Positions 7,613 through 59,062 of a stretch of 64,000 nucleotides of DNA are shown here, piece by piece; position 1 is the first letter of the stretch; every line of letters starts with the position of its first letter. This DNA comes from Caldilineae bacterium. Its GTDB lineage: Bacteria > Chloroflexota > Anaerolineae > DUEN01. The notes beneath the pieces were generated by a model, which saw only the letters and a program-made list of their open reading frames with translations, was not told the DNA's origin and ran no database searches. The position numbers were made by a program, and so were the translations under genes. The stretch covers positions 9,510 to 73,509 of the forward strand of contig DUEN01000009.1 in NCBI GenBank assembly GCA_011176545.1. Direction: 5' to 3'.

Positions 7613-7621
7613 GAGGTGGGC

Positions 7622-13180: not shown

Positions 13181-13427
13181 CCTGCTGGCGCAACTGGCCA
13201 GCGACTGGGAATACGATGGGGAGATCACCGAGGAGACCTACCTGTTCGCCGATCTGGGGTTTCAATCCCTGGATGCCGTCGTGCTGGGGAATTCCCTGCA
13301 GGAGCGGTTCGGCAAGCCAATCCCCTATGCCGACCTGCTGGCCGAGATCGGTCAGCGCGAGGTTCAGGATGTCACCATCGGTGAGTGGGTGGAGTTTACC
13401 TATAGACATCTACAGGATGGAGATTAG
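13143..13427 (+). CDS. Discrete acyl carrier protein
   Basis: ORF 13119-13427. ATG 13143 is preceded by AAAGGAG. FADLGFQSLDAVVLGNSL is a carrier-protein Ser motif. Overlaps the PKS2 3' end by 38 nt in another frame. Confidence 0.7.
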   Translation: MKTRHEVMQEVLSLLAQLASDWEYDGEITEETYLFADLGFQSLDAVVLGNSLQERFGKPIPYADLLAEIGQREVQDVTIGEWVEFTYRHLQDGD

Positions 13428-13449
13428 GGATTAGAGATTGGAGATGAGG

Positions 13450-15060: not shown

Positions 15061-15087
15061 CTTCATTGAGCGGCTTGGAGGTGTTCT

Positions 15088-15939
15088 GTGTCGATGATCT
15101 CTGTGAACGGCATCCGGTTCCATTATTGGACGGTCGGCCAGGGACCGGATGTGATCCTGTTGCATGGCCTGGGAGGTAACCTGGCCATCTGGCACTTGAA
15201 GATGGTACCTCTGCTGCGAAACATGTACCGTGTGACGACCTACGATCTGCGCGGCCACGGCTATAGCGATATGCCGCCCACCGGCTACACCACGGGCGAC
15301 ATGGCCGACGACCTGCGAGGCCTCATGGACGGGCTGGGGATCGAGCGGGCCCACCTGGTGGGCCACAGCCTGGGGGCGGATATCGCGCTCCACTTTGCCC
15401 TGCGTTATCCTGATCGGGCGGGCAAATTGATCCTAATCGAGGCTGGGCTCCCGGCCATGGTCAGCGCACGCAAGGACGAGAATTGGATCGGTTGGACATA
15501 CTGGGCGGAGATGATCGAGCGCTTCACCGGACACAAGGTGCCGCCGGAAAAGCGCACGGACTACAAGTATTTGCTGCGTCAGAGCCTAGAGATCCCGATC
15601 CTCTTCGGCCCGGCCCGAGGTAAACCGCGTAAACAGGAGAAGTTCCTGAAGCTGTTGGAGACGACGACCCTGGTGCAGGATTACGAGGTCGTCGGGGAAC
15701 TCACGCTGGAGAACATCGCCACGATCCCACATCCTAAGCTACTGATCTACGATACGAACTCGCCGTATCTCGAGACATATCGGGCGCTTTGTGAGGTGGC
15801 CAAAAACTATACGGCAGTGCTCTTACCAGGCAGCTCCCTTCGGCACTTCTTCCCCCTTGAGGAGCCTGAGAAGCTGGCGGAACACATCAAGGCTTTCCTC
15901 TCGCCGGAGGAAGAAGCGCCTGAGGGCGGGGGCGAATGA
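15088..15939 (+). CDS. Alpha/beta-fold hydrolase
   Basis: GTG start 6 nt after GGAGG. VILLHGLGGN, nucleophile elbow GHSLGA. Confidence 0.8.
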   Translation: MSMISVNGIRFHYWTVGQGPDVILLHGLGGNLAIWHLKMVPLLRNMYRVTTYDLRGHGYSDMPPTGYTTGDMADDLRGLMDGLGIERAHLVGHSLGADIALHFALRYPDRAGKLILIEAGLPAMVSARKDENWIGWTYWAEMIERFTGHKVPPEKRTDYKYLLRQSLEIPILFGPARGKPRKQEKFLKLLETTTLVQDYEVVGELTLENIATIPHPKLLIYDTNSPYLETYRALCEVAKNYTAVLLPGSSLRHFFPLEEPEKLAEHIKAFLSPEEEAPEGGGE

Positions 15940-16796
15940 GCAAGAGTGTGCTGATCACCGGCGCCGGGATGGGACTCGGCCTAGAGACGGCGCTTTACTT
16001 GGCCCAGCGGGGATTCACCGTCTACGCCAGCGTGCCTGAGGCGGCCCATCGGGACCTCGTGATGACGCGGGCGGCCGAGCAGGGCGTAACGTTGCACGTT
16101 CCACGGCTCGATGTGACCGATGAGGCGAGCATCCGGGAGACGGTGGGCACGATTCTGGCCGAGACAGGACATGTGTACGGCGTGGTCCACAACGCCGGGA
16201 TCAGCCTGCGTGGTTATTTCGAGGATTGCGAGGAGGAGGAGATCCGGCGAGTCATGGAGGTGAATTTCTTCGGTACGTTGGCGGTCACGCGGGCGGTCTT
16301 GCCGTCCATGCGCCAGGCCGGACAGGGACGTTTGATCTTCATCAGCTCCATCGGAGGCCGTATCGCCTCCATGGCGCGGACTGCTTATTGTGCCAGCAAG
16401 TTCGCGATCGAAGGGTTCGCTGAGTCGTTGATGCAAGAAGTGGCTCCGTTGGGGTTGCACGTTAGCATCATCGAGCCGGCCATCATTCGCACGGAGCGCT
16501 GGACGGTACATCGCGGGATCGCCAGGCGGGCATTAGACCCGGATAGCCCCTATCGGGAGTGGTTCCAGAGGCAAGAAGAACTGGCCGACGTGCTGGTGCG
16601 TACCTCGCCGACGAAGCCGATGCACGTGGCTCGAGTGGTATATCGGGCGTTAACCGCCAGGCGGCCCCGGTTACGTTACATGGTAGGCTGGCGGGCGAAG
16701 TCGGTATTACTCTTGCGCCGTCTCCTCCCGGGGGAGCTCTTCGAGCGATTCTACTTTGGGGAGGCGATGCGACGAGTGGCAGGATCGTCATCATAG
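15936..16796 (+). CDS. Short-chain dehydrogenase/reductase (SDR) 1
   Basis: ATGA overlap with the upstream stop. VLITGAGMGLGLETA, NAGI, YCASKFA (YxxxK). Confidence 0.85.
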   Translation: MSKSVLITGAGMGLGLETALYLAQRGFTVYASVPEAAHRDLVMTRAAEQGVTLHVPRLDVTDEASIRETVGTILAETGHVYGVVHNAGISLRGYFEDCEEEEIRRVMEVNFFGTLAVTRAVLPSMRQAGQGRLIFISSIGGRIASMARTAYCASKFAIEGFAESLMQEVAPLGLHVSIIEPAIIRTERWTVHRGIARRALDPDSPYREWFQRQEELADVLVRTSPTKPMHVARVVYRALTARRPRLRYMVGWRAKSVLLLRRLLPGELFERFYFGEAMRRVAGSSS

Positions 16797-16815
16797 GCGG
16801 AGGCGGATCGAGAAG

Positions 16816-17853
16816 ATGAGCGCTCTGTATTGGCTGCTCCGCCAACTTGGGCTCCGCCATATCGTGAGGCTTAACAAGGCCAAGCGGCTCAGCGATCGCT
16901 TCATTCGAGGGTTCTATGTGACCCATGCGTTGCTGGGACTCGCCAGCGTGGGGTTTCTCCAGGAGCTAGGGGATCAGGGTTCTGTGGATCTAGCGGAGTT
17001 CGCTTCGCGGGAGGGGATCGATTTGGAGATCCTGACCCCGCTATGTGAGTACCTGTACGGCCTGAAGATCCTACGGTGGGAGGGACAGCGTTACGCCCTG
17101 GATACGACGGGTGAGCTCATCAGCGATATGCTGATGGGGGCGTTGCTCTCGGTGCAGGCTTACGCGAACATCCTCTATCACCTGGAACCCCTGCTCCGCG
17201 GGCAGGAACACTACGGCAGCGAGGTAAGGCGCAGGCCACGTCTCGTCGCCGAGGGGAGCGGCCTTTCAGCTCAATTGCTGGCCTTCCCGCTCGTAGCCAG
17301 CCTGCTCCGGAAGAAGGGAAGCCGGCATGTGTTGGATCTGGCCTGTGGTGACGGGACGTTTCTCGAGGTCCTGTGTTCTCACGATGATCGCATCACTGGC
17401 TATGGGTTGGACATCGCGCCGGAGGCGATCGAGCTGGGCAGGCGAAGGTTGGCGACGCGTGGCCTGGAGGATCGGATTCACCTGTTCGTGGCCGATATGT
17501 TTCGCATCGATGAGATCACGTATCCCTTGCCGGAGATCGATGCGATCACCTGCATCTACGCTTTGCATGAATTTCTGACAGAGAACGGGGAGCAGGTCGT
17601 GGAGCTGTTGAGGAAGCTGCGGGGGCGGTTCCCGCAGACTCCTCTGATCGTGTGCGAGGTCATCCGTCACTCGCCGGATGAGCTGCGGCGAAAGCCGGGC
17701 GGCTTGCTCGAAATCCAGCTAGTGCATGCGCTTTCCGGTCAACGCCTGGGCACGCGACAGGAGTGGCGGGAGATCTTCCGGCGTGCTGGGTTCACAGAGA
17801 TGGAGGAACGATACCTGGGATTCGTTCGGACCGACATCTTCACAGTCCGATGA
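16816..17853 (+). CDS. Class I SAM-dependent methyltransferase with an N-terminal dimerisation / winged-helix-like domain (O-methyltransferase-like)
   Basis: VLDLACGDGTF SAM motif I, IYALHEF. ATG 16816 chosen within ORF 16756-17853. Confidence 0.75.
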   Translation: MSALYWLLRQLGLRHIVRLNKAKRLSDRFIRGFYVTHALLGLASVGFLQELGDQGSVDLAEFASREGIDLEILTPLCEYLYGLKILRWEGQRYALDTTGELISDMLMGALLSVQAYANILYHLEPLLRGQEHYGSEVRRRPRLVAEGSGLSAQLLAFPLVASLLRKKGSRHVLDLACGDGTFLEVLCSHDDRITGYGLDIAPEAIELGRRRLATRGLEDRIHLFVADMFRIDEITYPLPEIDAITCIYALHEFLTENGEQVVELLRKLRGRFPQTPLIVCEVIRHSPDELRRKPGGLLEIQLVHALSGQRLGTRQEWREIFRRAGFTEMEERYLGFVRTDIFTVR

Positions 17854-18743
17854 AAAAGAGAGTAGACAGCTTGACGATGACGGATAGCGTGCTGGTAACG
17901 GGGGCATCGGTCGGGTTCGGCAAAGAGATCGCTTTGCTGTTGGCCGAGCGCGGGTTCACCGTCTACGCGACCATGCGTCATCTGGACCGACGCGGTCCGT
18001 TGGAGGAAGAAGCGGCCCGCCGCGGGGTCTCCGTGCGGATCCGGCGCCTGGATGTCACCGATCGGCCCAGCATCGAGGAGACGGTGCAGTCCATTGTGGA
18101 TGAGACCGGCGGCGTCTATGCCGCGGTCAACAACGCGGGTCTGTTCCTGCGGGGCTTCTTCGAGGATCTGACGGACGAAGAGATCCGTCGGGTCTTCGAG
18201 ACGAACCTGTTCGGCGCGATGGCCGTGACGCGGGCCGTGTTACCTCACATGCGGGCTGCCGGGCGAGGGCGGATCGTGGTGATCTCCTCGGTGGCCGGGC
18301 GAATCGGCTCTCCCTCCGGCAGCATCTACAGCGCCAGCCGATTCGCGCAGGAAGGCTTCGCCGAGGCGCTGCGGCAGGAGGTGGAGCCGCTGGGCATTTA
18401 CGTGAGCCTGGTGGAGCCGGGGATCACCAAGACGGAATCGTGGACCATCGATAAGGGAGCAGGCGTGCGGGCCCGAGACCCCAACAGCCCATACTATCCC
18501 TGGTTTAAGCGTGCCGAGGAACTCTTCGATCAGGCGATGCGGTCGTCGCCCATCACCACGCGAGACGTGGCCGAAGCGGTGTACAGGGCGATCACCGACA
18601 GGCGACCACGATGGCGTTATATGGTCGGATGGCGGGCTCGAATCGTGATAGGGCTCCGCCGTTACGTCCCCGAGGAGCTGTTCAATCGCCTGTACTTTGG
18701 AGAGGTCATGCGCCGCGTCACCGGAGGAGCGAGGGGGACATGA
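17850..18743 (+). CDS. SDR 2 (paralogue of SDR 1) with a YxxxR variant of the catalytic motif
   Basis: ATGA overlap at 17850-17853. VLVTGASVGFGKEIA, NAGL, YSASRFA. C-terminal RPRWRYMVGWRA...LYFGEVMRRV is shared with SDR 1. Confidence 0.8.
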   Translation: MKKRVDSLTMTDSVLVTGASVGFGKEIALLLAERGFTVYATMRHLDRRGPLEEEAARRGVSVRIRRLDVTDRPSIEETVQSIVDETGGVYAAVNNAGLFLRGFFEDLTDEEIRRVFETNLFGAMAVTRAVLPHMRAAGRGRIVVISSVAGRIGSPSGSIYSASRFAQEGFAEALRQEVEPLGIYVSLVEPGITKTESWTIDKGAGVRARDPNSPYYPWFKRAEELFDQAMRSSPITTRDVAEAVYRAITDRRPRWRYMVGWRARIVIGLRRYVPEELFNRLYFGEVMRRVTGGARGT

Positions 18744-20842
18744 AGGCTGCATCGCGGTCAGTGACAGCGTTGGCGGAGCAACTCCCCGGGCGGCTACGGT
18801 TTCATCCGATCAGCCAGCCGGGGTTCGGCGATCGGCATAACAGTTGGGCCTGGGCTATGTGCTGGTGGAAGGGACATCTCTATGTCGGCACGAATCGGGC
18901 CTTCCTCTGCGCCGAGCGGGCATCCATTCGCGCAGCGCTCCCCTGGCTCTCGCGCTTCCCTTTCGTGCGGTATCCGCCTGAGGACCCGGATGCAGAATGC
19001 GCTTCGGATTACACCGATCTGCCGTTGGAGGCGGAGATCTGGCGTTGGTCGCCCGATGACGGGCGTTGGGAGCGCGTGTTCCGGTCGCCTCGGGACGTCC
19101 CCATCCCGGGACATCCGGGTAAATACGTCGCCCGAGATATTGGGTTTCGGGACATGATCGCCTTCTCCGAACCGGATGGTATGGAGGCGCTATACGTCTC
19201 CGGCGTGAACAGCCGTTTCATTTACAGTAAGTACGGCAGGGTGCCGCCGCCGAGATTGTTGCGGACGACGGATGGCCTGCACTTCGAGGCGGTCCCCCAA
19301 GATCCCGGCACGTTCTTCGGCGATCTGGATCGCTCCACCCTACGCACCCTGGCGGTCTACAAGGGGCGACTGTTCGTGGTCGCCGGTGCTGTCCAGGGCG
19401 ATGGGGTCCTGTTGGAATCGGATCAGCCCGCCCTGGGTAATGATGCCTTCCGCCAGGTCAGCCCGGAAGGGATGCGGGTCTTCGAGATGGTCGTTTACAA
19501 CGGCTACCTGTATCTGGGTCTGCGCGATCCCCAACGCGGATATGCTGTGGTGAAGACGGACGCGGAGGGGACGCCCCCTTACACCTTTACGCCCGTGGTG
19601 ACCGATGGGGCTTATCTCCCCCGACCCAGCCTGAGCGTGATCAGCATGTATGTCTTCCGAGACAGATTATACGTGGGTACGGACCGGCCGGCGGAGCTGA
19701 TCCGTATCCATCCGGATGATAGCTGGGACCTGGTCATCGGTACGCCGCGGCAAACCCCGACGGGATGGAAGGAGCCGATCAGCGGCCTGGACGCCGGCTT
19801 CTACAACTGGCTCAATGGACATCTGTGGCGGATGGTCGAATACGAGGGGCGGCTTTACATTGGGACCATGAACATGAGCACCCACCTGCGCACCATCCCA
19901 GAGGCTGAGCGCGTGCTGGCGCCTAATTATGGGTTCGACTTGTTTGAAAGCGAGGATGGGGTCCACTTCACGCCGATCACCTTCAACGGCTTCGGGGACA
20001 TGTTCAACTTCGGGGCACGCACCTTCGCGGCCACGCCGCATGGGCTCTTCCTGGGCACCGCGAATAGCTGGTATGGGTTGCAGATCTGGCGAGGCGTATC
20101 CGCAGCTCGGCGATTTGAGGATGCATCCGAGGGGCATGGCGAGGAAGCCAGTGGGGATGAGACAGTGGGGTGGTTCCCAGCCCGGCTTCAGGCCGAACGC
20201 GTGGATAGGAAAGTCATCCTCTCCTGGGAGCCAGCAGCGCGCGCCCGCCGATATCGGATCTGGCGGGCGCGGGTATCGGACGAGCGACGCGCTGTCGAGC
20301 AGAATCCCTTCTTGCGGCGGCTGCTCAAGATCGCCCGCGCCGTATTGCCCACCTTACAGAACGTCTACCTGCCCCCACTGCCAGAGAAGTTGTGGATCCC
20401 GGGCGCGTATGAGGAGGTGGGGAGCACCGACCAGACCATCTTCGTCGATCCATCGGGCGGGGAAGGGGTCTTCCTCTACTACATCCAGGCGGAGGGCGCG
20501 GATGGAAAGGCATTGGGCTGTTCCAATCTGGTGGCCGTCCCCTCCCTGGCGCCCAGGGCCACCTTCGATCGGCTGATGAAGGCGTTCGATGAGCGAATGC
20601 ATGGGCAGGATCTCGAGGAAGACGCCCTCCGTGATGCGATCGAGCGGGCTCGCGCCGCCGCCCTGGCGGGGGACGTGTCGGAGGCGGATCGCATACTGGG
20701 GGAGATCATGCAGGGGTTGACGGAGGGACGTTTCGGGGTGGGCGATCCTATCGCCCTGGAGGATATCGCGTTGCTGGTCTCGCGTTTGCGACGTCGATTG
20801 AGCCTGATTGAGAGTGGATGGATCTCCCTGGAGGCGCTGTGA
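18740..20842 (+). CDS. Repeat (probably beta-propeller) protein, paralogue 1; no obvious signal peptide; Fn3-like plus helical C-terminal module
   Basis: ATGA overlap at 18740-18743. GFGDRHNSWAWAMCWWKGHLYVGTN, then recurring G-x-L-[YF]-[VIL]-G motifs: GRLFVVAG, GYLYLGLRD, DRLYVGTD, GRLYIGTMN, HGLFLGTAN. Confidence 0.6.
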   Translation: MKAASRSVTALAEQLPGRLRFHPISQPGFGDRHNSWAWAMCWWKGHLYVGTNRAFLCAERASIRAALPWLSRFPFVRYPPEDPDAECASDYTDLPLEAEIWRWSPDDGRWERVFRSPRDVPIPGHPGKYVARDIGFRDMIAFSEPDGMEALYVSGVNSRFIYSKYGRVPPPRLLRTTDGLHFEAVPQDPGTFFGDLDRSTLRTLAVYKGRLFVVAGAVQGDGVLLESDQPALGNDAFRQVSPEGMRVFEMVVYNGYLYLGLRDPQRGYAVVKTDAEGTPPYTFTPVVTDGAYLPRPSLSVISMYVFRDRLYVGTDRPAELIRIHPDDSWDLVIGTPRQTPTGWKEPISGLDAGFYNWLNGHLWRMVEYEGRLYIGTMNMSTHLRTIPEAERVLAPNYGFDLFESEDGVHFTPITFNGFGDMFNFGARTFAATPHGLFLGTANSWYGLQIWRGVSAARRFEDASEGHGEEASGDETVGWFPARLQAERVDRKVILSWEPAARARRYRIWRARVSDERRAVEQNPFLRRLLKIARAVLPTLQNVYLPPLPEKLWIPGAYEEVGSTDQTIFVDPSGGEGVFLYYIQAEGADGKALGCSNLVAVPSLAPRATFDRLMKAFDERMHGQDLEEDALRDAIERARAAALAGDVSEADRILGEIMQGLTEGRFGVGDPIALEDIALLVSRLRRRLSLIESGWISLEAL

Positions 20843-20849
20843 GGGCATC

Positions 20850-22133
20850 ATGGCTCGCTTCCTGATCACCGTGTGGCCCCTATCCGGCCATGTGTACCCT
20901 AACCTGGCCCTGGCGACCGCCTTGCGTGATCGCGGGCATACCGTCGCCTTCTATACCGGGGCCCGGGCCCGCGCCGCGATCGAGCGAGAGGGGTTCACCT
21001 ATCTGCCCTTTAAGGCGCTGGATGGGGAGATCCTCGAGGAGATCATGGCTCCTGGCTATCTCAGCGCTCCGACCCCCTGGCATCGGGTTCGCCGGCAGAA
21101 GGCCATCTATCGTGAATGGCTGGTAGGCACGCTCCCGGGCCAGCTGGTCGATCTGGAGGAGATACTGCGAACGTGGCAGCCTGATGCGATCATCTGCGAC
21201 CCGACCATGTGGGGGCCGATCCTCGTGCTGCACGAGGCGTTTCAGGCGCCCGTGGCCGTCTTCTCCTACACGGTGGGATGTCTCTTGCCTGGGCGTGATG
21301 TGCCGCCACCCGGTCCCGGGTTACCGCCCCCGCGAAACGCGAGGGATCGTCTGCGCGCTGCCGCTTATGGAATCGCTCAGCACTTGGCTACCGCGGATAT
21401 CCGGCGGGCCGCCAACGAGATACGACGACGCTACGGGCTCCCCCCTTTGCGTGTCACGGTCACCGAGCACGCGGGGACGATGCCTTTGTACCTGGTGACG
21501 AGCGTCCCGGAGCTTGATTATAACCGGGATGACCTGCCGCCGAACGTGCACTATGTCGGCCCATGCCTATGGTCCAGGCCGGCCTCGGAGCCCCCAACCT
21601 GGATGGACGAACTTCCCTCAGATCAGCCCTGGGTACACGTCACCGAGGGGACGCTTCATAACCAGCGCCCTCTGCTCCTGTGGGCGGCCGCGCAGGGCCT
21701 GGCCGATCTGCCCGTACAGGTGATCATGGCGACGGGTACCCATCGCCGGCCGGAGGATCTAGGACTGGGGCCGCTGGCGCCCAATATCCACGTCAAAGCG
21801 TGGGTGTCCTATCCGCATCTGCTGCCACGGACCGCCGTGGTGGTGACCGCCGGAGGCGCAGGCACGGTGTTGGCGACGTTGCAGGCGGGCGTGCCGATGG
21901 TCGTCGTGCCTACGGAGTGGGATAAGCCGGAGAACGCTCAGCGAGTGGTGGAGAGCGGGGCCGGGTTACGGCTGAACCCCAAACGTTGCACGCCGACGCG
22001 GTTACGCTCCGCCGTCGAACGGATCCTGCGAGATCCGTCGTTTCGGGAGAACGCTCAGCGGTTAGCCCGGCGGTTCACCCAATATGGGGGGCCGCGACGA
22101 GCCGCGCAATTGTTGGAAGAGATGGTGATATGA
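20850..22133 (+). CDS. GT1-family (MGT/UDP-glycosyltransferase-like) glycosyltransferase
   Basis: MARFLITVWPLSGHVYPNLALATALRDRGHTVAFYTG. C-terminal VVTAGGAGTVLATLQAGVPMVVVP nucleotide-sugar motif. Confidence 0.8.
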   Translation: MARFLITVWPLSGHVYPNLALATALRDRGHTVAFYTGARARAAIEREGFTYLPFKALDGEILEEIMAPGYLSAPTPWHRVRRQKAIYREWLVGTLPGQLVDLEEILRTWQPDAIICDPTMWGPILVLHEAFQAPVAVFSYTVGCLLPGRDVPPPGPGLPPPRNARDRLRAAAYGIAQHLATADIRRAANEIRRRYGLPPLRVTVTEHAGTMPLYLVTSVPELDYNRDDLPPNVHYVGPCLWSRPASEPPTWMDELPSDQPWVHVTEGTLHNQRPLLLWAAAQGLADLPVQVIMATGTHRRPEDLGLGPLAPNIHVKAWVSYPHLLPRTAVVVTAGGAGTVLATLQAGVPMVVVPTEWDKPENAQRVVESGAGLRLNPKRCTPTRLRSAVERILRDPSFRENAQRLARRFTQYGGPRRAAQLLEEMVI

Positions 22134-24301
22134 AACGTGTATCCTGGATTGTTCAGGTAAGCCTCATCTTATGGCTACTGGTCGGAGGGCTTAGTCCCTA
22201 CGGGACAGCCTGGGCTGAAGAGCCTCCCGACCAGGAGGAGTTCGTCCTGGCCGCGCCCCAGGGCTTCGGGGATCGCCACAACAGCTGGGCGTGGTCCATG
22301 CAGTGGTGGAATGGCCATCTCTATGTGGGGACCAATCGGGCCTTCCGCTGCGCGGAGTTCGCCTCGTTGAACCATATCGCCCCCAGCCTCTTTCCGTACC
22401 CGCCGGAGGACCCGGATATCGAGTGCACTCCCGATCCGACGGATCTGCCGTTGCAGGCTGAGATTTGGCGTTGGACTCCCGAGACGGATAGCTGGGAGAG
22501 GGTCTACCAGGCGCCCGCGGATGTGCAACTGCCCAACGGGAAGTGGGTAGCGCGGGATATCGGCTATCGGGGCATGACGGTCTTCCGCGAGCCGGATGGC
22601 ACCGAGGCGCTCTATGTGACCGGCGTCAGCCCTCAGTTCCTCGGCTTTGAAGGAGTGGAGGATCTGCCCGCCCGTATACTGCGATCGACCGATGGCGTGC
22701 ATTTCGAGCCGATCCCGCAGGATCCGGGGACGGCATTGGGGAATTTCCCCTTCGCCGCGTTCCGTAACCCCACCGGTTACAAGGGGAAGTTCTACGTCGT
22801 GGGAGGGATGGTACAGGGCAGCGGCGTGTTGCTGGAATCCGAGACTCCCGCCGAGGGCAATGATAGCTTCCGGGTCGTGAGCCCCTCCGATATGATCGTC
22901 TCCGCCGTGGCCGTCTACAACGGCTATCTGTACCTCGGGCTGCGTGATCTCCTCAGGGGCTACGCGGTCGCCAAGACGGACGCCTCCGGCGAGCCCCCGT
23001 ACACCTTCACCATCATTGTCGATCAGGGCGGTAACCTGGACCTCTGGCGGAATCCCGAGGTGCTGAGCATGCAGGTCTTCGACGGCCGCCTGTACGTTGG
23101 GGGGAACGGGCTCATCATCGGCCCGCTGGGCATCATGGGGCCAGCGGAGCTGATCCGTATCAACCCCGATGACTCATGGGATCTCATCGTCGGCTATCCG
23201 AGGCGCACGCCCGATGGATGGAAGTTCCCATTGAGCGGGCTGACCGCGGGCTTCGGGAACTTCCTCAACGGGCATATGTGGCGCATGGAAGTCTACGAAG
23301 GAGAGCTTTACGTGGGCACCTTCGACAGCAGTACGACCTTCAAGGATGACCCGGATGTGGCGCCCCTCGTTCAGTCGCTGATGGGCTTTGACCTTTACCG
23401 CACCGCCAACGGCGTCGATTTCATGCCCGTGAGCACGACCGGCTTCGGGGACCCGTTCAACTTCGGCGTCCGGACGATGGCGGCGACCCCGCATGGCCTG
23501 TTCATCGGCACGGCTAATCCCTACTATGGGCTGCAGATCTGGCTCAAGAGGCGTTACGGGATGTTCCTCCCCCTGCTGGTGACGTCCCCTGCCCCTTCGT
23601 TACGCTCCTACGCCCCACCTCAGGAGGAAACGGCTTGCAAGGTAGCATCAGGCGATCGAAGGGGAGCCAGCCTGTATGGTGAGCCCATTGGCGGGGCGGT
23701 CGTCCTCTCATGGCGTCCCTTGCGCGGTGCGGCGGCCTATCGCATCTGGCGATCCCAGGCTGGCCTAGCGACCTTTGCCCCGGAAGGCCCACGTGTCCAG
23801 GATGAGGATATGCTTACACTGGAAGTCCTCAAGGGGCAGCGGCCGTCTTTCACGGATATCGGGCAGACGTCAGGTTGCTATTATGTGGATCAGGGGGTAC
23901 ACTTATCTCAGAGATCGTACCTCTACCTGGTCGAAGGCATCGATGCCATGGGGCGGTCGGTCGGGTGGTCTCACTTGACGGCTGTCCCTGGCGCTGCTCC
24001 CTCAGTGACCTTTTCCTCGCTGATCATGAAAGCCACCGAGGCGCACGCCAAGGGATATCTATCCTCAGCGGGATTCGAAGAGCTCAGGCAGAGGCTAGAG
24101 GAGATCCGATGGCTGCTAAGGAATGCCCACGACGCAGCCGCTCGACAGCGACTAGCAGCCCTTCGGGAACGCCTCTCACAGCCTGGGGGGATCTTCCCGG
24201 CCTCATGGATGTCTGAGGATTTCCTCTATCTTGTGGACAAGTTAGAGAGGCGGGTGGATTTGATGGAGAAGGGGTTTATAGAGCCGATGGATCTGGAGTG
24301 A
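22130..24301 (+). CDS. Repeat (probably beta-propeller) protein, paralogue 2; signal peptide; Fn3-like plus helical C-terminal module
   Basis: ATGA overlap at 22130-22133. MKRVSWIVQVSLILWLLVGG signal, GFGDRHNSWAWSMQWWNGHLYVGTN, same repeat series as paralogue 1. Confidence 0.6.
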   Translation: MKRVSWIVQVSLILWLLVGGLSPYGTAWAEEPPDQEEFVLAAPQGFGDRHNSWAWSMQWWNGHLYVGTNRAFRCAEFASLNHIAPSLFPYPPEDPDIECTPDPTDLPLQAEIWRWTPETDSWERVYQAPADVQLPNGKWVARDIGYRGMTVFREPDGTEALYVTGVSPQFLGFEGVEDLPARILRSTDGVHFEPIPQDPGTALGNFPFAAFRNPTGYKGKFYVVGGMVQGSGVLLESETPAEGNDSFRVVSPSDMIVSAVAVYNGYLYLGLRDLLRGYAVAKTDASGEPPYTFTIIVDQGGNLDLWRNPEVLSMQVFDGRLYVGGNGLIIGPLGIMGPAELIRINPDDSWDLIVGYPRRTPDGWKFPLSGLTAGFGNFLNGHMWRMEVYEGELYVGTFDSSTTFKDDPDVAPLVQSLMGFDLYRTANGVDFMPVSTTGFGDPFNFGVRTMAATPHGLFIGTANPYYGLQIWLKRRYGMFLPLLVTSPAPSLRSYAPPQEETACKVASGDRRGASLYGEPIGGAVVLSWRPLRGAAAYRIWRSQAGLATFAPEGPRVQDEDMLTLEVLKGQRPSFTDIGQTSGCYYVDQGVHLSQRSYLYLVEGIDAMGRSVGWSHLTAVPGAAPSVTFSSLIMKATEAHAKGYLSSAGFEELRQRLEEIRWLLRNAHDAAARQRLAALRERLSQPGGIFPASWMSEDFLYLVDKLERRVDLMEKGFIEPMDLE

Positions 24302-24381
24302 CGGCTTTCGTTCCAAGACGCTTGGCTTTATGAGCAGGGTCGTTTTCTTTCGCCGCTCCCGTCTAGTGCAGAAGGAGGTTC

Positions 24382-26388
24382 ATGATGGAGAGCCGTGGTA
24401 TACACATAGGGGCACGTTATCGTAGGCTGGCTCCGATTGCTTTGGTCCTGATGATCGGCCTGCTGACTGCTTTGGCGGTACCCGGGCAGGCCTCGAGCCC
24501 GCAGGCGACGCCGATCCCGCTCACACAGGATGAGTTCTCCTCTATCGCGCCCCAGGGGTTCGGAGATCGTCACAATAGCTGGGCATGGTCGATGCAGTGG
24601 TGGAACGGTTACCTGTACGTAGGCACCAACCGGGCGTGGCATTGCGCCGAGGTCGCTGCCCTGACGAACATCTTCCCTGGGCTGGTGACATATCCACCGG
24701 ACGATCCGGACGTGGAATGTACCCCGGATCCTGAAGATCTCCCCTTACAGGCGGAGATCTGGCGCTGGTCGCCGGCGACTGGATGGGAGCGAGTGTATCA
24801 GGCGCCCGCGGATGTTCCGCTACAAAGCGGCAAGATGGTGGCCAGAGACGTCGGCTACCGGGGTATGACGGTCTTCCGCGAGCCGGATGGCACCGAGGCG
24901 CTTTACGTCACCGCCGTCAGCCCTCAGTTCATCTTCGAGGAGCTGACCGATGTGCCAGCCCGCATCCTGCGGTCAACCGATGGAGTGCACTTCGAGCCGA
25001 TCCCACAAGATCCGGGCACAGCTCTGGGGAACTTCCCCTTCAGCGTCTTCCGCAATCCTACCAGCTACAACGGACGGTTTTACGTCACGGGAGGCACGGT
25101 CCAGGGAAGTGGCGTGTTGCTGGAATCCGACGATCCGGCCGCGGGCAACGATAGCTTCCGCATCGTCTCGCCTCCAGGCATGATCGTCTCCGCGCTGAAG
25201 CCCTACAATGGGTACCTCTACGTGGGCGTGCGGGGGCTCTGGCGTGGCTACTCCATCGTTAAGACGGACGCCAGCGGAGATCCTCCCTATACCTTCACGC
25301 TGGTGGTGGAGAAGGGCGGATATCTCCGGCATGGTCGGAACCCCGAGGTGCTGAGCATGGAGATCTTCGACGGCTACCTGTACGTGGGTGGCAACGGTAT
25401 CTCCGTCGGCTCGATCGGCCCCGGCGCCGCTGCCGAGCTGATCCGCATCCATCCTGATGATTCCTGGGATCTCATCGTCGGCTATCCACGACTGACCCCT
25501 GATGGGTACAAATATCCGCTCAGCGGCCTGGAGGCTGGCTTCGGGAACCCGTTTAACGCCCATATGTGGCGAATGGCGGTGTATGATGGCGTGCTGTACG
25601 TGGGGACCTTTGACACCAGCACCACGCTCCGCAACGATCCTCAGCTCGGCGGATACGCGCAGCGATTCGCGGGGTTTGACCTGTATGCTTCTACGGACGG
25701 CATGCACTTCACGCCGGTGACCATGGACGGGTTTGGGGATGAGTTTAACTTCGGCGTACGAACCATGGCCTCCACGTCTGAGGGGCTATTCATAGGTACG
25801 GCTAATTACTACTATGGCCTGCAAATCTGGCGCGGCCAGAGCGGAGCTCCCCCAGCGTCAACCGAGACTCCAACCCCGACGCAGACCCCTGTCGCGGGAG
25901 AGGTCGCTGGGTGGGTCTTCCTTGACCTGAATGGGGATGGCCGTCGCGATCCGTATGCCGGGGAGACGACCGGTATCCCTGGTGTGACCCTGATCCTCCG
26001 TGATGCGGAGGGGAACGCCTTCACCACGCGAAGCACAAATCCCTCCGGGTGGTACGCATTCTCCAACGTGCCGCCCGGCATGTATACCGTGGAGGAGCAA
26101 CAGCCGCCTGGATACGTCAGCACCAGCCCGGATGTCGTCGCCATCGAGGTGCTTGCCGGAGGACAGCATATCGTGAACTTCGGCGAGATGCTCACCACCT
26201 CCACACCGACGGCGACGCCGCGCGATACGCCTACCGCGACGCCAACGCTGACACCAACGGCGACGCCAAGCAACACGCCCACCGCGACGCCGTCACCGAC
26301 GCCGACGGATACGCCCACACTTACCCCCACTGCCGGGCCCGTGGGAGAGGTCGGCTATGTGGTATACCTGCCGCTGCTGGCGAAGTGA
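24382..26388 (+). CDS. Repeat (probably beta-propeller) protein, paralogue 3; signal peptide; C-terminal SdrD-B/Cna-B-like domain, Thr/Pro-rich tail, terminal YLPLLAK
   Basis: GAAGGAGG RBS before ATG 24382. GFGDRHNSWAWSMQWWNGYLYVGTN. GWVFLDLNGDGRRDP...GWYAFSNVPPGMYTVEE. TPTATP repeats. Confidence 0.65.
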   Translation: MMESRGIHIGARYRRLAPIALVLMIGLLTALAVPGQASSPQATPIPLTQDEFSSIAPQGFGDRHNSWAWSMQWWNGYLYVGTNRAWHCAEVAALTNIFPGLVTYPPDDPDVECTPDPEDLPLQAEIWRWSPATGWERVYQAPADVPLQSGKMVARDVGYRGMTVFREPDGTEALYVTAVSPQFIFEELTDVPARILRSTDGVHFEPIPQDPGTALGNFPFSVFRNPTSYNGRFYVTGGTVQGSGVLLESDDPAAGNDSFRIVSPPGMIVSALKPYNGYLYVGVRGLWRGYSIVKTDASGDPPYTFTLVVEKGGYLRHGRNPEVLSMEIFDGYLYVGGNGISVGSIGPGAAAELIRIHPDDSWDLIVGYPRLTPDGYKYPLSGLEAGFGNPFNAHMWRMAVYDGVLYVGTFDTSTTLRNDPQLGGYAQRFAGFDLYASTDGMHFTPVTMDGFGDEFNFGVRTMASTSEGLFIGTANYYYGLQIWRGQSGAPPASTETPTPTQTPVAGEVAGWVFLDLNGDGRRDPYAGETTGIPGVTLILRDAEGNAFTTRSTNPSGWYAFSNVPPGMYTVEEQQPPGYVSTSPDVVAIEVLAGGQHIVNFGEMLTTSTPTATPRDTPTATPTLTPTATPSNTPTATPSPTPTDTPTLTPTAGPVGEVGYVVYLPLLAK

Positions 26389-26487: not shown

Positions 26488-26512
26488 CCAACATCGTTAA
26501 CGAGGAATGCGT

Positions 26513-27847
26513 ATGACCGAACGCCCTAATATCATCGTGTTAGCTGTGGATACTTTACGCGCCGATCATCTCGGGTGTTATGGATACGCGCGCCCTACCA
26601 GCCCGAACATCGATGCCCTGGCTGAGGAGGGTGTCCTGGCGGAGAGGATGCTCTGCCCGGCCATCCCGACTTTCCCCTCCTTCACCACGTTCTACACCGC
26701 CCAGCATCCCCTGACCCATGGGATCATCGCCCATGGTGGGGACGCACGATTGGCTCGCGAGGCGCCTCATCTTGTCCCGCTCTTGTTGGAGGCGGGCTAT
26801 ACGACCTGCGCCGTGGACAACCTCATCCGGGAGAGGATATGGTTCGGCCGCGGCTACGAGTTTTGCATCGATCCAGGGCTACGACGCCCCCTGTCCATGA
26901 TGGTGACCTGCGAGGAACTGAACGCCCGGGCCATCTCCTGGTTGCGCCATTATCATCACGAGCCCTTTTTCCTTTTCATCCATTATTGGGACCCCCATAC
27001 GCCGTACACGCCTCCGGAGCAATATCGAGAGCTCTTCTACGAGGGGGGCAATCCGACCGATCCCGAGAACCGCTCGCTGGAGAAGATGTGGGAGCACCCC
27101 AATGGGATGATCGCCCGGGATAGCTGGCTGCGGACCCCCGAGGGCCTGATCACGGATGCCGACTACGTCGCTGCCCTCTACGACGCGGAGATCCGCTACC
27201 TGGACGATGGGATTGGCCAGATTATCACGGCCGTTGATGAGTTGGGGTTGACCGAGAACACGCTGATCATCCTCATGGCGGATCACGGGGAGAGCATGAC
27301 CGAGCATGGCATCTACTTCGATCACTTCGGGCTCTACGAATGCACGATCCATGTGCCCTTCATCGCGCGCTGGCCCGGCCGTCTCCCGGCTGGAGTGCGG
27401 TTGTCCCACATGTTACAGCTCAGCGACATCGCGCCGACGTTGCTGGAGGCCATTGGGCTGGTGATCCCAGGCGCTATGGAGGGCAAGAGCTTCTGGCCCT
27501 TGCTGACGGGCGCGTCGAACAGCGGGGGATGGGATCGGGTGATCAGCGTGGAGGCGACCTGGCAGGCCAAGTGGAGCCTGCGGACCGAGCGTTATAAGTT
27601 CATCCTCGACCGGGATCTGGGAGAGGACGGGAGTCCAGCTCACGAGCTTTATGATCTGGTCGCCGACCCGGGGGAGACGGTGAATCTGGTTGAAGCCCAA
27701 CCACAATTGGCCGCGGAGATGGAAGCCGAGCTGGAAAGCTGGATCGCGCGCCGGCTCCATGAGCTGGGCAAGCAGGAGGATCCATTGATCACGGAGGGCG
27801 CGATCCTAAAATCGACATGGCTGATGCATCAGGGAGTAAGCGCATGA
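26513..27847 (+). CDS. Sulfatase-fold (alkaline phosphatase superfamily) hydrolase/transferase, apparently Thr-type rather than formylglycine-type
   Basis: NIIVLAVDTLRADHLGCYGY, PTFPSFTTFYTAQHPLTHGI, MADHGESMTEHG. ATG 26513 lies 6 nt after GAGGA. Confidence 0.7.
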   Translation: MTERPNIIVLAVDTLRADHLGCYGYARPTSPNIDALAEEGVLAERMLCPAIPTFPSFTTFYTAQHPLTHGIIAHGGDARLAREAPHLVPLLLEAGYTTCAVDNLIRERIWFGRGYEFCIDPGLRRPLSMMVTCEELNARAISWLRHYHHEPFFLFIHYWDPHTPYTPPEQYRELFYEGGNPTDPENRSLEKMWEHPNGMIARDSWLRTPEGLITDADYVAALYDAEIRYLDDGIGQIITAVDELGLTENTLIILMADHGESMTEHGIYFDHFGLYECTIHVPFIARWPGRLPAGVRLSHMLQLSDIAPTLLEAIGLVIPGAMEGKSFWPLLTGASNSGGWDRVISVEATWQAKWSLRTERYKFILDRDLGEDGSPAHELYDLVADPGETVNLVEAQPQLAAEMEAELESWIARRLHELGKQEDPLITEGAILKSTWLMHQGVSA

Positions 27848-28266: not shown

Positions 28267-29202
28267 ATGCGAGTGCTGTTGACGGGCGGGACCGGGTTAT
28301 TGGGATGGACGTTGTTGCAGAAGATGCCCCCGGAATGGGAGGTCGTCGTTGCCGTTCACCGGAACCACATCCCTCCCCTGGGCGCTCATATCCGTCCTAT
28401 CCTCATGGATCTGACCTCCCGCCAGCAGGTGCGGGAGGCCGTGCGATGGGCGCGGCCGGACGTGATCATCCACACCGCGTCCATTGGAGATCTCGACGCT
28501 AACGAGAGAAGGCAGGAGGAAGCCTGGCAGGTCAATGTGGAAGGCACGCGGTTCCTGCTAGAGGAGTCGCTGCCGTATGAGCCCCTCTTCGTCTTCTGTT
28601 CGACGATCTACGTCTTCGACGGCACCGAGCCGCCTTATGCTGAGGACGCGGTGCCCAACCCGATCAACTTCTACGCCAGGTGTAAGCTCGCCGGGGAGCG
28701 GCTCGCCCAGCGCTTGGCGCATCGGTTGCTCCTGTTACGCCCGAACACGACCTATGGCTGGCACCTGCCCGGCCAGCGTCCCAACTGGGTCACCTGGCTA
28801 CTTGCCAAACTGAGCGCAGGCCAGCCGGTCAAGGTCGTCGATGATGTGCATAACAACTATGTCTGGGTGGGCGATGTCGCCGATATCATCCTGGCTGGCA
28901 TCATCCAGGGGGTGACAGGGGTCTTTCACGTCGGTGGCCCGGAGTCGATGAGCCGATACGTGTTTTCGCTTCATATCGCTGACGTCTTCGGCTATCCCCG
29001 TGATCTGATCTCGCCGGTGTCCAGCGATTACTTTGCCAGCCTGGCCCCGCGGCCGAGAAGCGCCATATGCTCGATCGAGAAGATGGTGAGGGTTCTGGGG
29101 ATTCGGCCCCTGACCGTCCTCGAAGGGCTGGAGCTCATGAAGCGGCAGGAGGAGATGCGGGTCCGGCTGGGACGGGAGTATCATGAACTGGTCTCGGCCT
29201 GA
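28267..29202 (+). CDS. NAD(P)-dependent sugar-nucleotide reductase/epimerase (RmlD-like)
   Basis: MRVLLTGGTGLLG Rossmann motif, YARCK (YxxxK). Alternative TTG start at 28237. Confidence 0.7.
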   Translation: MRVLLTGGTGLLGWTLLQKMPPEWEVVVAVHRNHIPPLGAHIRPILMDLTSRQQVREAVRWARPDVIIHTASIGDLDANERRQEEAWQVNVEGTRFLLEESLPYEPLFVFCSTIYVFDGTEPPYAEDAVPNPINFYARCKLAGERLAQRLAHRLLLLRPNTTYGWHLPGQRPNWVTWLLAKLSAGQPVKVVDDVHNNYVWVGDVADIILAGIIQGVTGVFHVGGPESMSRYVFSLHIADVFGYPRDLISPVSSDYFASLAPRPRSAICSIEKMVRVLGIRPLTVLEGLELMKRQEEMRVRLGREYHELVSA

Positions 29203-31818: not shown

Positions 31819-31823
31819 TCACG

Positions 31824-33308: not shown

Positions 33309-33336
33309 GTTCGACATGGGAGGTGAGGAAGCCGCG

Positions 33337-35169: not shown

Positions 35170-35174
35170 CTTTC

Positions 35175-39612: not shown

Positions 39613-39670
39613 AGAGATGTCGAGGGCGCAGAGGGCCCTTCTATTCTCTTCCTCCTTCCTCCTCGCATGC

Positions 39671-56431: not shown

Positions 56432-56447
56432 GGTAGGGGAGTGTCCT

Positions 56448-59045: not shown

Positions 59046-59062
59046 ACCGGGAGAGAGGAATC

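What the first reader, a model, noticed from the sequence alone, without database searches (positions are those of the whole stretch)
18740..26388. Three paralogous repeat/propeller proteins with an invariant GFGDRHNSWAW-M-WW-G-LYVGTN motif embedded in a PKS operon
Three ORFs of 668-743 aa share the same architecture. Each begins with a nearly invariant 25-aa motif:
- Paralogue 1: nt 18821-18895.
- Paralogue 2: nt 22262-22336.
- Paralogue 3: nt 24556-24630.

The motif is followed by six or seven blade-like units ending in G-x-L-[YF]-[VIL]-G. I do not recognise the family.

The genes are interleaved with the GT1 gene and start/stop-coupled to it. Paralogue 1 has no signal peptide, while paralogues 2 and 3 have clear ones. 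Paralogues 1 and 2 share an Fn3-like plus helical C-terminal module (ending LIESGWISLEAL and LMEKGFIEPMDLE). Paralogue 3 replaces that module with an SdrD-B/Cna-B-like domain and a Thr/Pro tail.

Inference: one intracellular and two extracellular versions of one fold inside a lipid-biosynthesis operon suggests a lipid-handling, carrier or assembly role. Nothing in the sequence proves this.
Basis: partly seen in the sequence, partly recalled or inferred. Interest (0 to 1): 0.8.

Follow-up and report, generated by a model that had tools for sequence, protein, structure and literature searches.

The report
Unnamed propeller proteins of a lipid operon
Three neighbouring genes encode members of a large, unnamed family of seven-bladed propeller proteins, mostly secreted, that sits in the same PKS-plus-sugar-transferase operon in at least seven bacterial phyla and is often fused to a lipase-like enzyme; its biochemical function is still unknown.

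Summary
There are three paralogues (46-59% identical): 18740-20842, 22130-24301 and 24382-26388. Each opens with GFGDRHNSWAW-M-WW-G-LYVGTN.

AlphaFold2 (pLDDT 90) gives a closed seven-bladed beta-propeller. In paralogues 1 and 2 it is followed by an Fn3 domain and a four-helix tail. In paralogue 3 it is followed by an SdrD_B domain and a Thr/Pro tail.

The propeller matches no Pfam or NCBIfam model and no PDB sequence. Foldseek finds only generic propellers. The family is large: 747 clusters at 50% identity with E<=1e-30.

Across Chloroflexota, Acidobacteriota, Thermodesulfobacteriota and other phyla it sits in one stereotyped operon: PfaA-like PKS, PKS, phosphodiesterase-like, alpha/beta-hydrolase, SDR, GT1, propeller, sulfatase-like, MFS_2.

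Almost all members carry signal peptides. The signal-less paralogue 1 belongs to a Chloroflexota-only clade that keeps all conserved residues.

Many relatives are fused to a PGAP1-like serine esterase homologous to window gene 33292-35169.

Best reading (inferred): an extracytoplasmic binding or gating partner for processing an anionic PKS-derived glycolipid. An enzymatic role is not excluded.

The parts
18740..20842 (+). Paralogue 1 (700 aa), no signal peptide. Propeller at about nt 18797-20089, Fn3-like at about 20177-20554, helical tail to 20839. Belongs to the signal-less Chloroflexota-only clade.
18821..18895 (+). 25-aa opening motif of paralogue 1 (GFGDRHNSWAWAMCWWKGHLYVGTN). It forms the D-to-A loop plus strands A and B of blade 1.
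20850..22133 (+). GT1 (MGT/EryCIII-like) glycosyltransferase, cytoplasmic. Its stop overlaps the paralogue 2 start.
22130..24301 (+). Paralogue 2 (723 aa). It occupies the ancestral GT1-propeller-sulfatase position.
- Signal peptide: nt 22130-22216.
- Seven-bladed propeller: aa 38-474, nt 22241-23551.
- Fn3: aa 515-619, nt 23672-23986.
- Four-helix tail: aa 628-722, nt 24011-24295.
22262..22336 (+). 25-aa opening motif of paralogue 2.
24382..26388 (+). Paralogue 3 (668 aa).
- Signal peptide: about nt 24382-24492.
- Propeller: about nt 24532-25830.
- SdrD_B domain: nt 25909-26133.
- Thr/Pro-rich tail: from about nt 26194.
- The protein ends ...VYLPLLAK.
24556..24630 (+). 25-aa opening motif of paralogue 3.
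33292..35169 (+). Exported PGAP1-like alpha/beta-hydrolase with nucleophile elbow AHSKG. Its hydrolase domain (aa ~55-335) is homologous to the N-terminal domain fused to the propeller in many relatives, so it is the inferred functional partner.
173..13180 (+). Two iterative PKS genes.
- 173-7612: ER-KS-AT-ACP-KR, passes the PfaA model TIGR02813.
- 7616-13180: KS-AT-ACP-DH-PPTase.
13143..13427 (+). Small free-standing ACP-like ORF (94 aa, LGFQSLD motif). A PP-binding gene sits at the same position in L001 and L004.
13438..18743 (+). Conserved cytoplasmic tailoring block.
- Phosphodiest/NPP-like: 13438-15060.
- Alpha/beta-hydrolase: 15088-15939.
- SDR: 15936-16796.
- Methyltransferase: 16756-17853.
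- SDR: 17763-18743.
26507..27847 (+). Sulfatase-family (alkaline-phosphatase superfamily) protein with no signal peptide. It is the conserved downstream neighbour of the propeller. It has PTFPS where the CxPxR formylglycine motif would be.
29183..33308 (+). Other recurrent cluster genes.
- DUF362 with a twin-arginine signal: 29183-30538.
- PD40 propeller lipoprotein: 30475-31818.
- MFS_2 transporter: 31809-33308.

Best explanation
The three genes encode members of one uncharacterised, widespread family of closed seven-bladed beta-propellers. The family is a signature component of a conserved operon: PfaA-like PKS, PKS, (ACP), phosphodiesterase-like, alpha/beta-hydrolase, SDR, GT1, propeller, sulfatase-like, MFS_2, PD40. 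That operon most likely makes a glycosylated long-chain lipid, probably sulfated or phosphorylated.

Shown:
- The fold and the family's size.
- The absence of any named relative.
- The cross-phylum synteny.
- The family is ancestrally secreted.
- Paralogue 2 holds the ancestral slot and paralogue 3 is its tandem duplicate with a surface-spacer tail.
- Paralogue 1 belongs to a Chloroflexota-only signal-less clade that keeps every conserved residue.
- Relatives are repeatedly fused to a PGAP1-like serine esterase.

Inferred mechanism:
- After the cytoplasmic enzymes build and glycosylate the lipid and it is exported (MFS_2, possibly the HlyD/MacB-type genes), the secreted propeller binds its anionic head group.
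- Binding would occur at the top-face entrance of the central channel. That entrance is lined by the invariant or near-invariant residues that open the A strands (N51, R147, R212, H382, R448 in paralogue 2 numbering) and by a conserved cap (C74...YPPxDPDxEC99...AEIW).
- The propeller would present or gate the lipid for the PGAP1-like esterase, or hold it in the envelope.
- The signal-less paralogue 1 would do the same binding job at the cytoplasmic glycosylation stage.
For: Fold:
- The AlphaFold2 model has pLDDT 90.4 and pTM 0.90, with seven four-stranded blades and an N-terminal closing strand.

Family with no name:
- At least 964 hits, all 'hypothetical' or named only for the Fn3 domain.
- 747 50%-identity clusters at E<=1e-30.
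- No Pfam or NCBIfam hit. PDB profile hits fall only in the Fn3 part.

Synteny:
- The same operon occurs in Caldilineales, Desulfobacteraceae-labelled and other metagenome contigs.
- Among 39 GTDB loci of at least 19 kb, 22 have the PKS, 27 have GT1 and 35 have some cluster gene.
- Gene order is fixed in loci labelled Chloroflexota, Acidobacteriota, Thermodesulfobacteriota, Isosphaeraceae and Solirubrobacteraceae.

Secretion:
- Most members have a hydrophobic signal segment. The 13 signal-less members with a complete core form one Chloroflexota clade.
- That clade keeps all key residues, including both cysteines.

Fusion:
- 22 of 31 N-terminally extended representatives carry a domain homologous to window gene 33292-35169, at phmmer E 1e-29 to 1e-92.
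- Pfam calls PGAP1/DUF676 or Abhydrolase_1 on two of them.
- One fusion gene lies in the same kind of cluster.
- A family gene overlaps a PGAP1 gene start in L003.

Position of conserved residues relative to the strands.
Against: - No ligand, activity or localisation has been measured for any member.
- I could not read model coordinates. The 'top-face pocket' is deduced from strand order, not seen.
- Conservation is very high and asymmetric: about 28 invariant and about 100 near-invariant positions out of about 440, with E111, D188, R212, R358, H382, R448 and a Cys pair. This pattern is more typical of an enzyme than of a passive binder.
- PGAP1-like genes are within 10 kb in only 14 of the 80 loci in the table, 76 of them from the genome scan. 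The canonical operon often has no PGAP1 gene nearby.
- Four of the 39 large loci show none of the cluster genes within 10 kb (L056, L058, L062, L074). The shorter Micromonospora qiuiae locus (L076, about 12 kb, cut at a contig end) also shows none on the side that could be read.
- The product of the operon is unknown. The 'sulfatase' lacks the CxPxR motif.
Confidence: 0.4

Rival explanations
1. The propeller is itself an enzyme. It would be a hydrolase, lyase or group transferase acting on the sugar, sulfate or phosphate head group, or on the lipid chain. Its active site would be at the central top-face pocket, formed by the invariant Glu, Asp, His and Arg residues and perhaps the Cys pair or a bound metal. 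The cytoplasmic and secreted copies would catalyse the same chemistry in two compartments.
For: - Conservation of unique polar residues is very strong and asymmetric across at least seven phyla.
- All three paralogues and the signal-less clade keep every such residue, so there are no pseudo-enzyme-like losses.
- The two cysteines are 100% conserved even in the signal-less clade, which argues for more than a disulfide.
- Foldseek neighbours include propeller enzymes: sialidases, GH43, GH74, GH145/PL42 and the sulfotransferase Cpz4.
- The gene sits inside the biosynthetic block, between GT1 and the sulfatase-like gene.
Against: - No catalytic family matches by sequence.
- Structural matches are generic, with 7-16% identity, TM-score on the target at most 0.69 and high rmsd.
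- Fusions are to an esterase and to surface or binding modules (BACON, PKD, CARDB, dockerin, Ig-like). These are typical of binding or display proteins.
- A separate arylsulfotransferase gene exists in L081.
Confidence: 0.3
2. The proteins are general cell-surface structural or adhesive proteins (envelope, sheath or S-layer-associated). They would be co-transcribed with the lipid genes because both build the same surface layer, with no specific contact with the lipid.
For: - Signal peptides are present.
- Fn3, SdrD_B, Thr/Pro spacer, CARDB, PKD, BACON, dockerin and Ig-like extensions occur, and there are giant multi-domain relatives.
- Some members lie outside any PKS context.
Against: - A conserved signal-less clade retains all conserved residues.
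- The fixed position inside the operon across phyla and the fusion to an esterase point to a specific molecular job.
- Surface or structural proteins rarely keep 45-50% identity across phyla.
Confidence: 0.12
3. The propeller is a ligand sensor or regulator module, like the Reg_prop propellers of hybrid two-component systems, reporting on the envelope lipid.
For: Weak single-repeat Reg_prop (PF07494) matches: 14.0 and 14.8 bits in paralogues 2 and 3, and 19.1-22.2 bits in three relatives, against a cut-off of 20.4.
Against: - No transmembrane, kinase, HTH or other signalling domain is present in the window proteins or in any fusion examined.
- The matches cover only the GxLYVGT strand.
Confidence: 0.03

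Closest known systems
Asp-box (BNR) beta-propellers: sialidases, Sortilin/Vps10, GH74, Ycf48 (PSII_BNR)
   Same: - Beta-propeller fold.
- Several blades carry an Asp-box-like turn between strands C and D (LRSTDGVHFEP, YRTANGVDFMP, AKTDASGEPPYTF).
- Foldseek lists Sortilin, GH74 and sialidases among its hits.
   Different: - No BNR, BNR_2, Sortilin-Vps10 or PSII_BNR Pfam match even at E<=1.
- Seven blades, with its own GFGD-x2-N-x5-M / G-x-L-Y-V-G-T signature.
- A conserved Cys-containing cap inserted in blade 1.
- No evidence of sialidase catalytic residues.
Prolyl-oligopeptidase-type architecture (seven-bladed propeller gating an alpha/beta-hydrolase)
   Same: - A seven-bladed propeller is physically coupled to an alpha/beta-hydrolase in many relatives.
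- Two peptidases appear among the Foldseek hits (7ep9, 7c72). That they belong to the prolyl-oligopeptidase family is my recollection, not a test.
   Different: - The hydrolase is a PGAP1/DUF676-like lipase-type esterase, not an S9 peptidase.
- It is N-terminal to the propeller.
- In the window the two are separate genes about 7 kb apart.
- No sequence similarity. Gating is an analogy, not a test.
Kelch and LGI1-EPTP seven- or six-bladed propellers (best Foldseek matches)
   Same: Overall propeller geometry. E values are 1e-8 to 4e-7, and TM-score on the target is 0.53-0.69.
   Different: 10-16% identity and rmsd of 5-7 A. No Kelch Pfam match. These are eukaryotic protein-interaction modules with no link to lipid operons.
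Heterocyst glycolipid (hgl) islands of cyanobacteria with the DevBCA exporter
   Same: At the operon level:
- PfaA-like iterative PKS genes plus a glycosyltransferase make a long-chain glycolipid destined for the envelope. The hgl system is described in PMC11804610, PMC3098273 and PMC13291983.
- HlyD and MacB-type genes lie downstream in the window.
   Different: - hgl islands are not reported to contain this propeller, the two alkaline-phosphatase-superfamily genes, PD40, MFS_2 or PGAP1-like genes.
- No ABC ATPase lies next to the MacB-type gene here.
- Orthology to hgl genes was not tested.
Arylsulfate sulfotransferases (ASST, e.g. Cpz4 of caprazamycin biosynthesis)
   Same: A beta-propeller enzyme encoded in a natural-product cluster that involves sulfation. 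Cpz4 appears among the Foldseek hits.
   Different: - TM-score 0.33-0.37 and rmsd about 20 A.
- No PF05935 or PF14269 match.
- A separate ASST gene is present in the related cluster L081.

Membership tests
Beta-propeller fold (general) | Closed ring of four-stranded antiparallel blades | tested here: met
   The AlphaFold2 model has pLDDT 90.4 and seven blades, with N-terminal strand 38-40 completing blade 7. There are 374 Foldseek PDB matches at E<=0.001. The top 50 listed are nearly all proteins known to contain propeller domains.
BNR/Asp-box propellers (Pfam BNR, BNR_2, Sortilin-Vps10, PSII_BNR) | Significant match to a family HMM | tested here: not met
   No such family is listed for any paralogue at E<=1.
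BNR/Asp-box propellers | Asp-box S-x-D-x-G-x-T-W in the C-D turn of the blades | tested here: inconclusive
   Degenerate versions occur in blades 2, 4 and 6 (STDGVHF, TDASGEPPYTF, TANGVDF). They were read from the sequence against the model's strands and do not follow the strict consensus.
Reg_prop (PF07494, two-component regulator propeller) | Score above the curated cut-off of 20.4 bits | tested here: not met
   Paralogue 2 scores 14.0 bits, paralogue 3 scores 14.8 bits, and paralogue 1 has no hit. Relatives score 19.1-22.2 bits for a single repeat only.
Kelch | Match to Kelch repeat HMMs | tested here: not met
   No Kelch family. There is only fold-level Foldseek similarity at 12-16% identity.
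Arylsulfate sulfotransferase (PF05935/PF14269) | HMM match and superposable six-bladed catalytic propeller | tested here: not met
   No HMM match. Cpz4 gives TM 0.33-0.37 and rmsd about 20 A.
Any protein with a solved structure (sequence homology) | phmmer or profile match to the propeller region | tested here: not met
   phmmer gives nothing below E=1. A 100-sequence profile hits only the Fn3 region, profile positions 509-633.
Fibronectin type III (C-terminal module of paralogues 1 and 2) | Fn3 beta-sandwich | tested here: met
   The domain model has pLDDT 88. Foldseek Fn3 hits reach TM on target of about 0.66. The profile hit to the Fn3 of 8pn5 has E 2e-4. The Pfam fn3 model itself scores only 16.7-24.5 bits in relatives, below its cut-off of 25.
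SdrD_B (PF17210) in paralogue 3 | Score above the curated cut-off of 29.7 bits | tested here: met
   54.7 bits, E 1.4e-14, aa 510-584.
PfaA-type PUFA-synthase-like PKS (operon context) | TIGR02813 above its cut-off of 1010.1 bits | tested here: met
   ORF 173-7612 scores 1124 bits. ORF 7616-13180 scores 704.9 bits, below the cut-off.
Prolyl-oligopeptidase-like propeller/hydrolase pair | Propeller covalently joined to an S9 peptidase alpha/beta-hydrolase domain | tested here: not met
   The fusion partner is a PGAP1/DUF676-like esterase, not S9. In the window the genes are separate. The resemblance is functional analogy only.
Heterocyst glycolipid island | Orthologues of hglB, hglC, hglD, hglE and hglT plus devBCA | not tested
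   Only domain-level resemblance was seen. No orthology analysis was run.

The most novel reading that the evidence does not exclude
The propeller is a new kind of extracytoplasmic enzyme or assembly factor. Together with the PGAP1-like esterase, it would mature and deposit a PKS-made anionic glycolipid layer in the envelopes of Chloroflexota, Acidobacteriota and Thermodesulfobacteriota. That would be an uncharacterised counterpart of the heterocyst glycolipid layer, and this family would be its diagnostic marker.
Probability: 0.2. Interest if true: 0.8.

Novelty: new variant of a known kind. Interest (0 to 1): 0.55.

Why it matters
Only a handful of products of PUFA-synthase-like 'secondary lipid' pathways are known (PMC13291983, PMC3098273). 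This operon is widespread in abundant but mostly uncultured soil, sediment and hot-spring lineages, and I found no description of it in the papers I searched.

The propeller family is large: 747 clusters at 50% identity. It has no Pfam, NCBIfam or PDB relative. It is the operon's most distinctive gene, so it could serve as a search handle for the whole pathway.

The esterase fusion and the secreted/cytoplasmic split give concrete, testable hypotheses about how a polyketide glycolipid is handled outside the cell.

At minimum the family deserves a domain model and a name.

Tried and rejected
1. Enediyne idea.
- The second PKS ends in a PPTase domain like enediyne PKSE, and enediyne cassettes contain a secreted unknown protein (UNBV). 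Both points are from my memory.
- PDB sequence matches of the PKS are generic and not enediyne-specific.
- No paper with 'UNBV' is in the library.
- The only cultured carrier, Micromonospora qiuiae, has no PKS beside its copy on the side that could be read. Its neighbours there are Ig-like, LuxR, PD40-VWA and Pvc16/AAA genes.
- Dropped without a direct sequence test.

2. Arylsulfotransferase membership. Rejected.

3. Hidden fourth paralogues.
- The other unknown or propeller proteins of the cluster were compared with the family profile by hhalign: 35136-36470, the PD40 protein 30475-31818 and the PGAP1-like protein.
- Probabilities were 0.3%, 0.2% and 1.3%. They are not related.

4. PF25833, listed as precomputed for some relatives, did not reappear in direct scans.

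5. The helical tail gives only E~0.03 hits to FIMAH (PF22888) in two relatives and no Foldseek match.

6. Literature searches found nothing about the family or the operon.

7. Search for cultivated hosts. A second genome scan seeded with an acidobacterial member returned only MAGs.

8. The conserved residues could not be mapped in 3D because model coordinates are not exposed to scripts.

9. The ORF 39617-40156 (+) is probably spurious. The minus-strand ORF 39671-40867 reads like a GT4-type glycosyltransferase, judged by eye. No ABC ATPase motif lies near the MacB-type gene.


Full report
**Observation**

The window carries three same-strand ORFs at 18740-20842, 22130-24301 and 24382-26388. They are 46-59% identical to each other.

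The genes are tightly packed with their neighbours:
- The upstream SDR stop overlaps the paralogue 1 start (ATGA).
- The GT1 ATG lies 7 nt after the paralogue 1 stop.
- The GT1 stop overlaps the paralogue 2 start (ATGA).

Paralogues 2 and 3 have classical signal peptides. Paralogue 1 has none, even in its longest reading.

**Anatomy**

I made a 100-sequence alignment (A1) and an AlphaFold2 model of paralogue 2 (pLDDT 90.4, pTM 0.90). The model shows:
- A closed seven-bladed propeller at residues 38-474. The N-terminal strand 38-40 completes blade 7.
- A disordered linker.
- An Fn3 sandwich at residues 515-619.
- A four-helix tail at residues 628-722.

A separate model of the C-terminal module (pLDDT 88) confirms the Fn3 fold by Foldseek. 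It leaves the helical bundle without any match. Paralogue 3 replaces this module with an SdrD_B domain (Pfam 54.7 bits) and a Thr/Pro spacer.

I read the conservation against the modelled strands:
- The GFGD-x2-N-x5-M element is the loop entering strand A. It recurs in blades 1, 6 and 7.
- G-x-L-Y-V-G-T is strand B.
- The residues opening the A strands are invariant or nearly so: N51, R147, R212, H382 and R448.
- A long insertion between strands B and C of blade 1 carries two cysteines (C74, C99) and YPPxDPDxEC...LQAEIW.

By the usual propeller topology these elements lie on one face around the channel entrance. This is my inference, because I could not read the coordinates.

**Is it a known family?**

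No.
- Pfam and NCBIfam give nothing for the core.
- phmmer and a family profile against all PDB sequences hit only the Fn3 part.
- Foldseek against the PDB returns generic propellers at 7-16% identity. These include designed and natural Kelch proteins, LGI1-EPTP, Sortilin, GH74, sialidases, lectins, GH145/PL42 and Cpz4. The best TM-score on the target is 0.69.
- Some blades have Asp-box-like turns. Single repeats graze the Reg_prop model below its cut-off.

The fold class is ordinary. The family is not described.

**Size and spread**

- A word-seeded search found at least 964 relatives, all 'hypothetical' or named only for the Fn3 domain.
- An exhaustive profile search of 1.84 billion representatives found 747 clusters at E<=1e-30 and 2494 at E<=1e-10.
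- In one genome per GTDB species, 257 stretches encode a relative.
- Organism labels include Chloroflexota (Anaerolineae, Caldilineae, Ardenticatenales, Chloroflexia, Dehalococcoidia), Acidobacteriota, Thermodesulfobacteriota, Gammaproteobacteria, Isosphaeraceae, Nitrospira and Actinomycetota.
- Nearly all are MAGs. The one cultured carrier seen is Micromonospora qiuiae.

**Context**

The window genes lie in a long same-strand cluster:
- A PfaA-type PKS (ER-KS-AT-ACP-KR), which passes TIGR02813.
- A second PKS (KS-AT-ACP-DH-PPTase).
- A small ACP.
- An NPP/Phosphodiest-like protein.
- An alpha/beta-hydrolase.
- SDR, methyltransferase, SDR.
- Paralogue 1, GT1, paralogue 2, paralogue 3.
- A sulfatase-family protein.
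- An RmlD-like reductase.
- A twin-arginine DUF362 protein.
- A PD40 lipoprotein.
- An MFS_2 transporter.
- A PGAP1-like exported hydrolase.
- A secreted unknown protein.
- HlyD and MacB-type genes.

The same block recurs on unrelated contigs. I searched the fetched loci with the window's proteins by tblastn. Of 39 species-representative loci of at least 19 kb:
- 22 have the PKS.
- 26 have the PKS or the tailoring block.
- 27 have GT1.
- 35 have at least one cluster gene.

The order is nearly invariant across phyla: PKS_B, Phosphodiest, alpha/beta-hydrolase, SDR, GT1, propeller, sulfatase, MFS_2. PAPS-type sulfotransferases, and in one case an arylsulfotransferase, occur in several versions. 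The window's 'sulfatase' lacks the CxPxR motif and looks phosphodiesterase-like. The likely product is therefore a glycosylated long-chain lipid carrying sulfate or phosphate. This is inferred; no product is known.

**The three copies**

A hydrophobicity scan of 78 family ORFs shows that most have a signal peptide.

In a neighbour-joining tree of 68 cores, the clearly signal-less members form one clade confined to Chloroflexota. A few borderline or truncated cases fall outside it. The clade includes paralogue 1 and its positional counterparts next to the SDR in L001, L008 and L010.

Paralogues 2 and 3 fall together in the secreted group with counterparts in L005 and L007. Paralogue 2 holds the ancestral GT1-propeller-sulfatase slot.

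The signal-less clade keeps every conserved residue, including both cysteines, at 100%. Whatever the propeller does, it does the same thing on both sides of the membrane.

**A new functional link**

Many representatives have an N-terminal extension of about 290 residues. In 22 of the 31 I tested, this extension is homologous to the hydrolase domain (aa ~55-335, AHSKG elbow) of the window's PGAP1-like protein 33292-35169. The phmmer E values run from 1e-29 to 1e-92.
- Pfam labels two of the fusions PGAP1/DUF676 or Abhydrolase_1.
- One such fusion sits in the same kind of cluster.
- In L003 the family gene overlaps a PGAP1 gene start.

This Rosetta-stone fusion is the best available clue. The propeller works with an exported lipase-type serine esterase. 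Other fusions are to BACON, PKD, CARDB, Ig-like, dockerin and BNR modules, all extracellular.

**Mechanism**

I commit, at about 0.4, to a binding or gating partner role. The secreted propeller would bind the anionic head group of the exported glycolipid at its Arg/His-lined face. It would then present the lipid to the PGAP1-like esterase, or hold it in the envelope. The signal-less copy would do the same at the cytoplasmic GT1 stage.

The main rival, at about 0.3, is that the propeller is itself an enzyme. The strong, asymmetric conservation and the invariant cysteines favour that view. A merely structural surface role (about 0.12) and a sensor role (about 0.03) fit the data less well.

**Comparison and novelty**

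At operon level the nearest known system is the heterocyst glycolipid island (PMC11804610, PMC3098273). At protein level the nearest analogy is the propeller-plus-hydrolase design of prolyl oligopeptidases. Neither is a membership.

I rate the finding a new variant of a known kind: a known fold, but an unnamed, large family with a distinctive and conserved genomic role. Interest is moderate to good (0.55). It is a clean lead into an uncharacterised, widespread secondary-lipid pathway, but no surprising mechanism has been demonstrated.

Noticed in passing
window 26365-26385; 30517-30535 (end of ORF 29183-30538); 23564-23578; about 34324-34338: The peptide [YF]LP[LAVIM][LVIM] occurs four times in about 20,150 residues of the window's main ORFs, and all four are in exported cluster proteins. 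Two are at the extreme C-terminus: paralogue 3 (...VYLPLLAK*) and the DUF362 protein (...AYLPAVLR*). Two lie just after a folded domain: paralogue 2 (GMFLPLLVTSP) and the PGAP1-like protein (HAYLPLLYREGG). This may be a Chloroflexota sorting or processing signal.
   Followed up: partly
window 13143-13427 (+): A 94-aa free-standing ACP-like ORF (LGFQSLD) lies between the second PKS and the Phosphodiest gene, overlapping the PKS stop. The 150-aa ORF list missed it. A PP-binding gene sits at the same place in L001 and L004.
   Followed up: partly
window 26507-27847 (+): The 'sulfatase' (PF00884) has no signal peptide. It has ...CPAIPTFPSFTT... where sulfatases carry C/S-x-P-x-R, which resembles the Thr-nucleophile motif of NPP-type phosphodiesterases. 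It may act on phosphate rather than sulfate esters.
   Followed up: no
window 7616-13180 (+) and 173-7612 (+): The PKS domain fusions are unusual. The first PKS has a PfaD/FabK-like enoyl reductase (NMO) fused N-terminally. The second ends in a PPTase domain, an arrangement I recall from enediyne PKSE. PDB matches are not enediyne-specific.
   Followed up: partly
window 35136-36470 (+): A secreted 444-aa protein with no Pfam match recurs near family members in L003, L004, L011, L012, L013 and L023. It is unrelated to the propeller family (hhalign probability 0.3%).
   Followed up: partly
window 53162-62104 (+): A 1089-aa VWA protein is followed by two large Tubulin_2 (PF13809) proteins of 890 and 1013 aa. 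This is an unexplained three-gene set outside the lipid cluster.
   Followed up: no
window 43842-45380 (-): A lone Baseplate_J-like protein (PF04865, E 4e-10) lies between the MltG/YceG and alanyl-tRNA synthetase genes. No other phage or contractile-system gene was seen nearby.
   Followed up: no
window 39617-40156 (+) vs 39671-40867 (-): The plus-strand ORF of 179 aa is probably spurious. The overlapping minus-strand ORF (398 aa) reads like a GT4-type glycosyltransferase, judged by eye only. No Walker-A or ABC signature lies next to the MacB-type permease gene.
   Followed up: partly
L081 13328-17428; L056 from about 9863; protein P0223: Some relatives are giant. One is a 1366-aa gene product directly downstream of the fusion gene in L081; it may be P0125, a 1366-aa representative that matches the family profile in four stretches. 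Others are a roughly 2400-aa ORF in L056 and the 2506-aa protein P0223; P0223 combines the family propeller with Ycf48/Sortilin-type BNR propellers.
   Followed up: no
L076 (Micromonospora qiuiae NBRC 106684): The only cultured carrier found has a divergent copy (35% identity) at a contig end. It lies beside Ig-like, LuxR and PD40-VWA genes and a Pvc16/AAA contractile-injection-like set, with no PKS on the side that could be read.
   Followed up: partly
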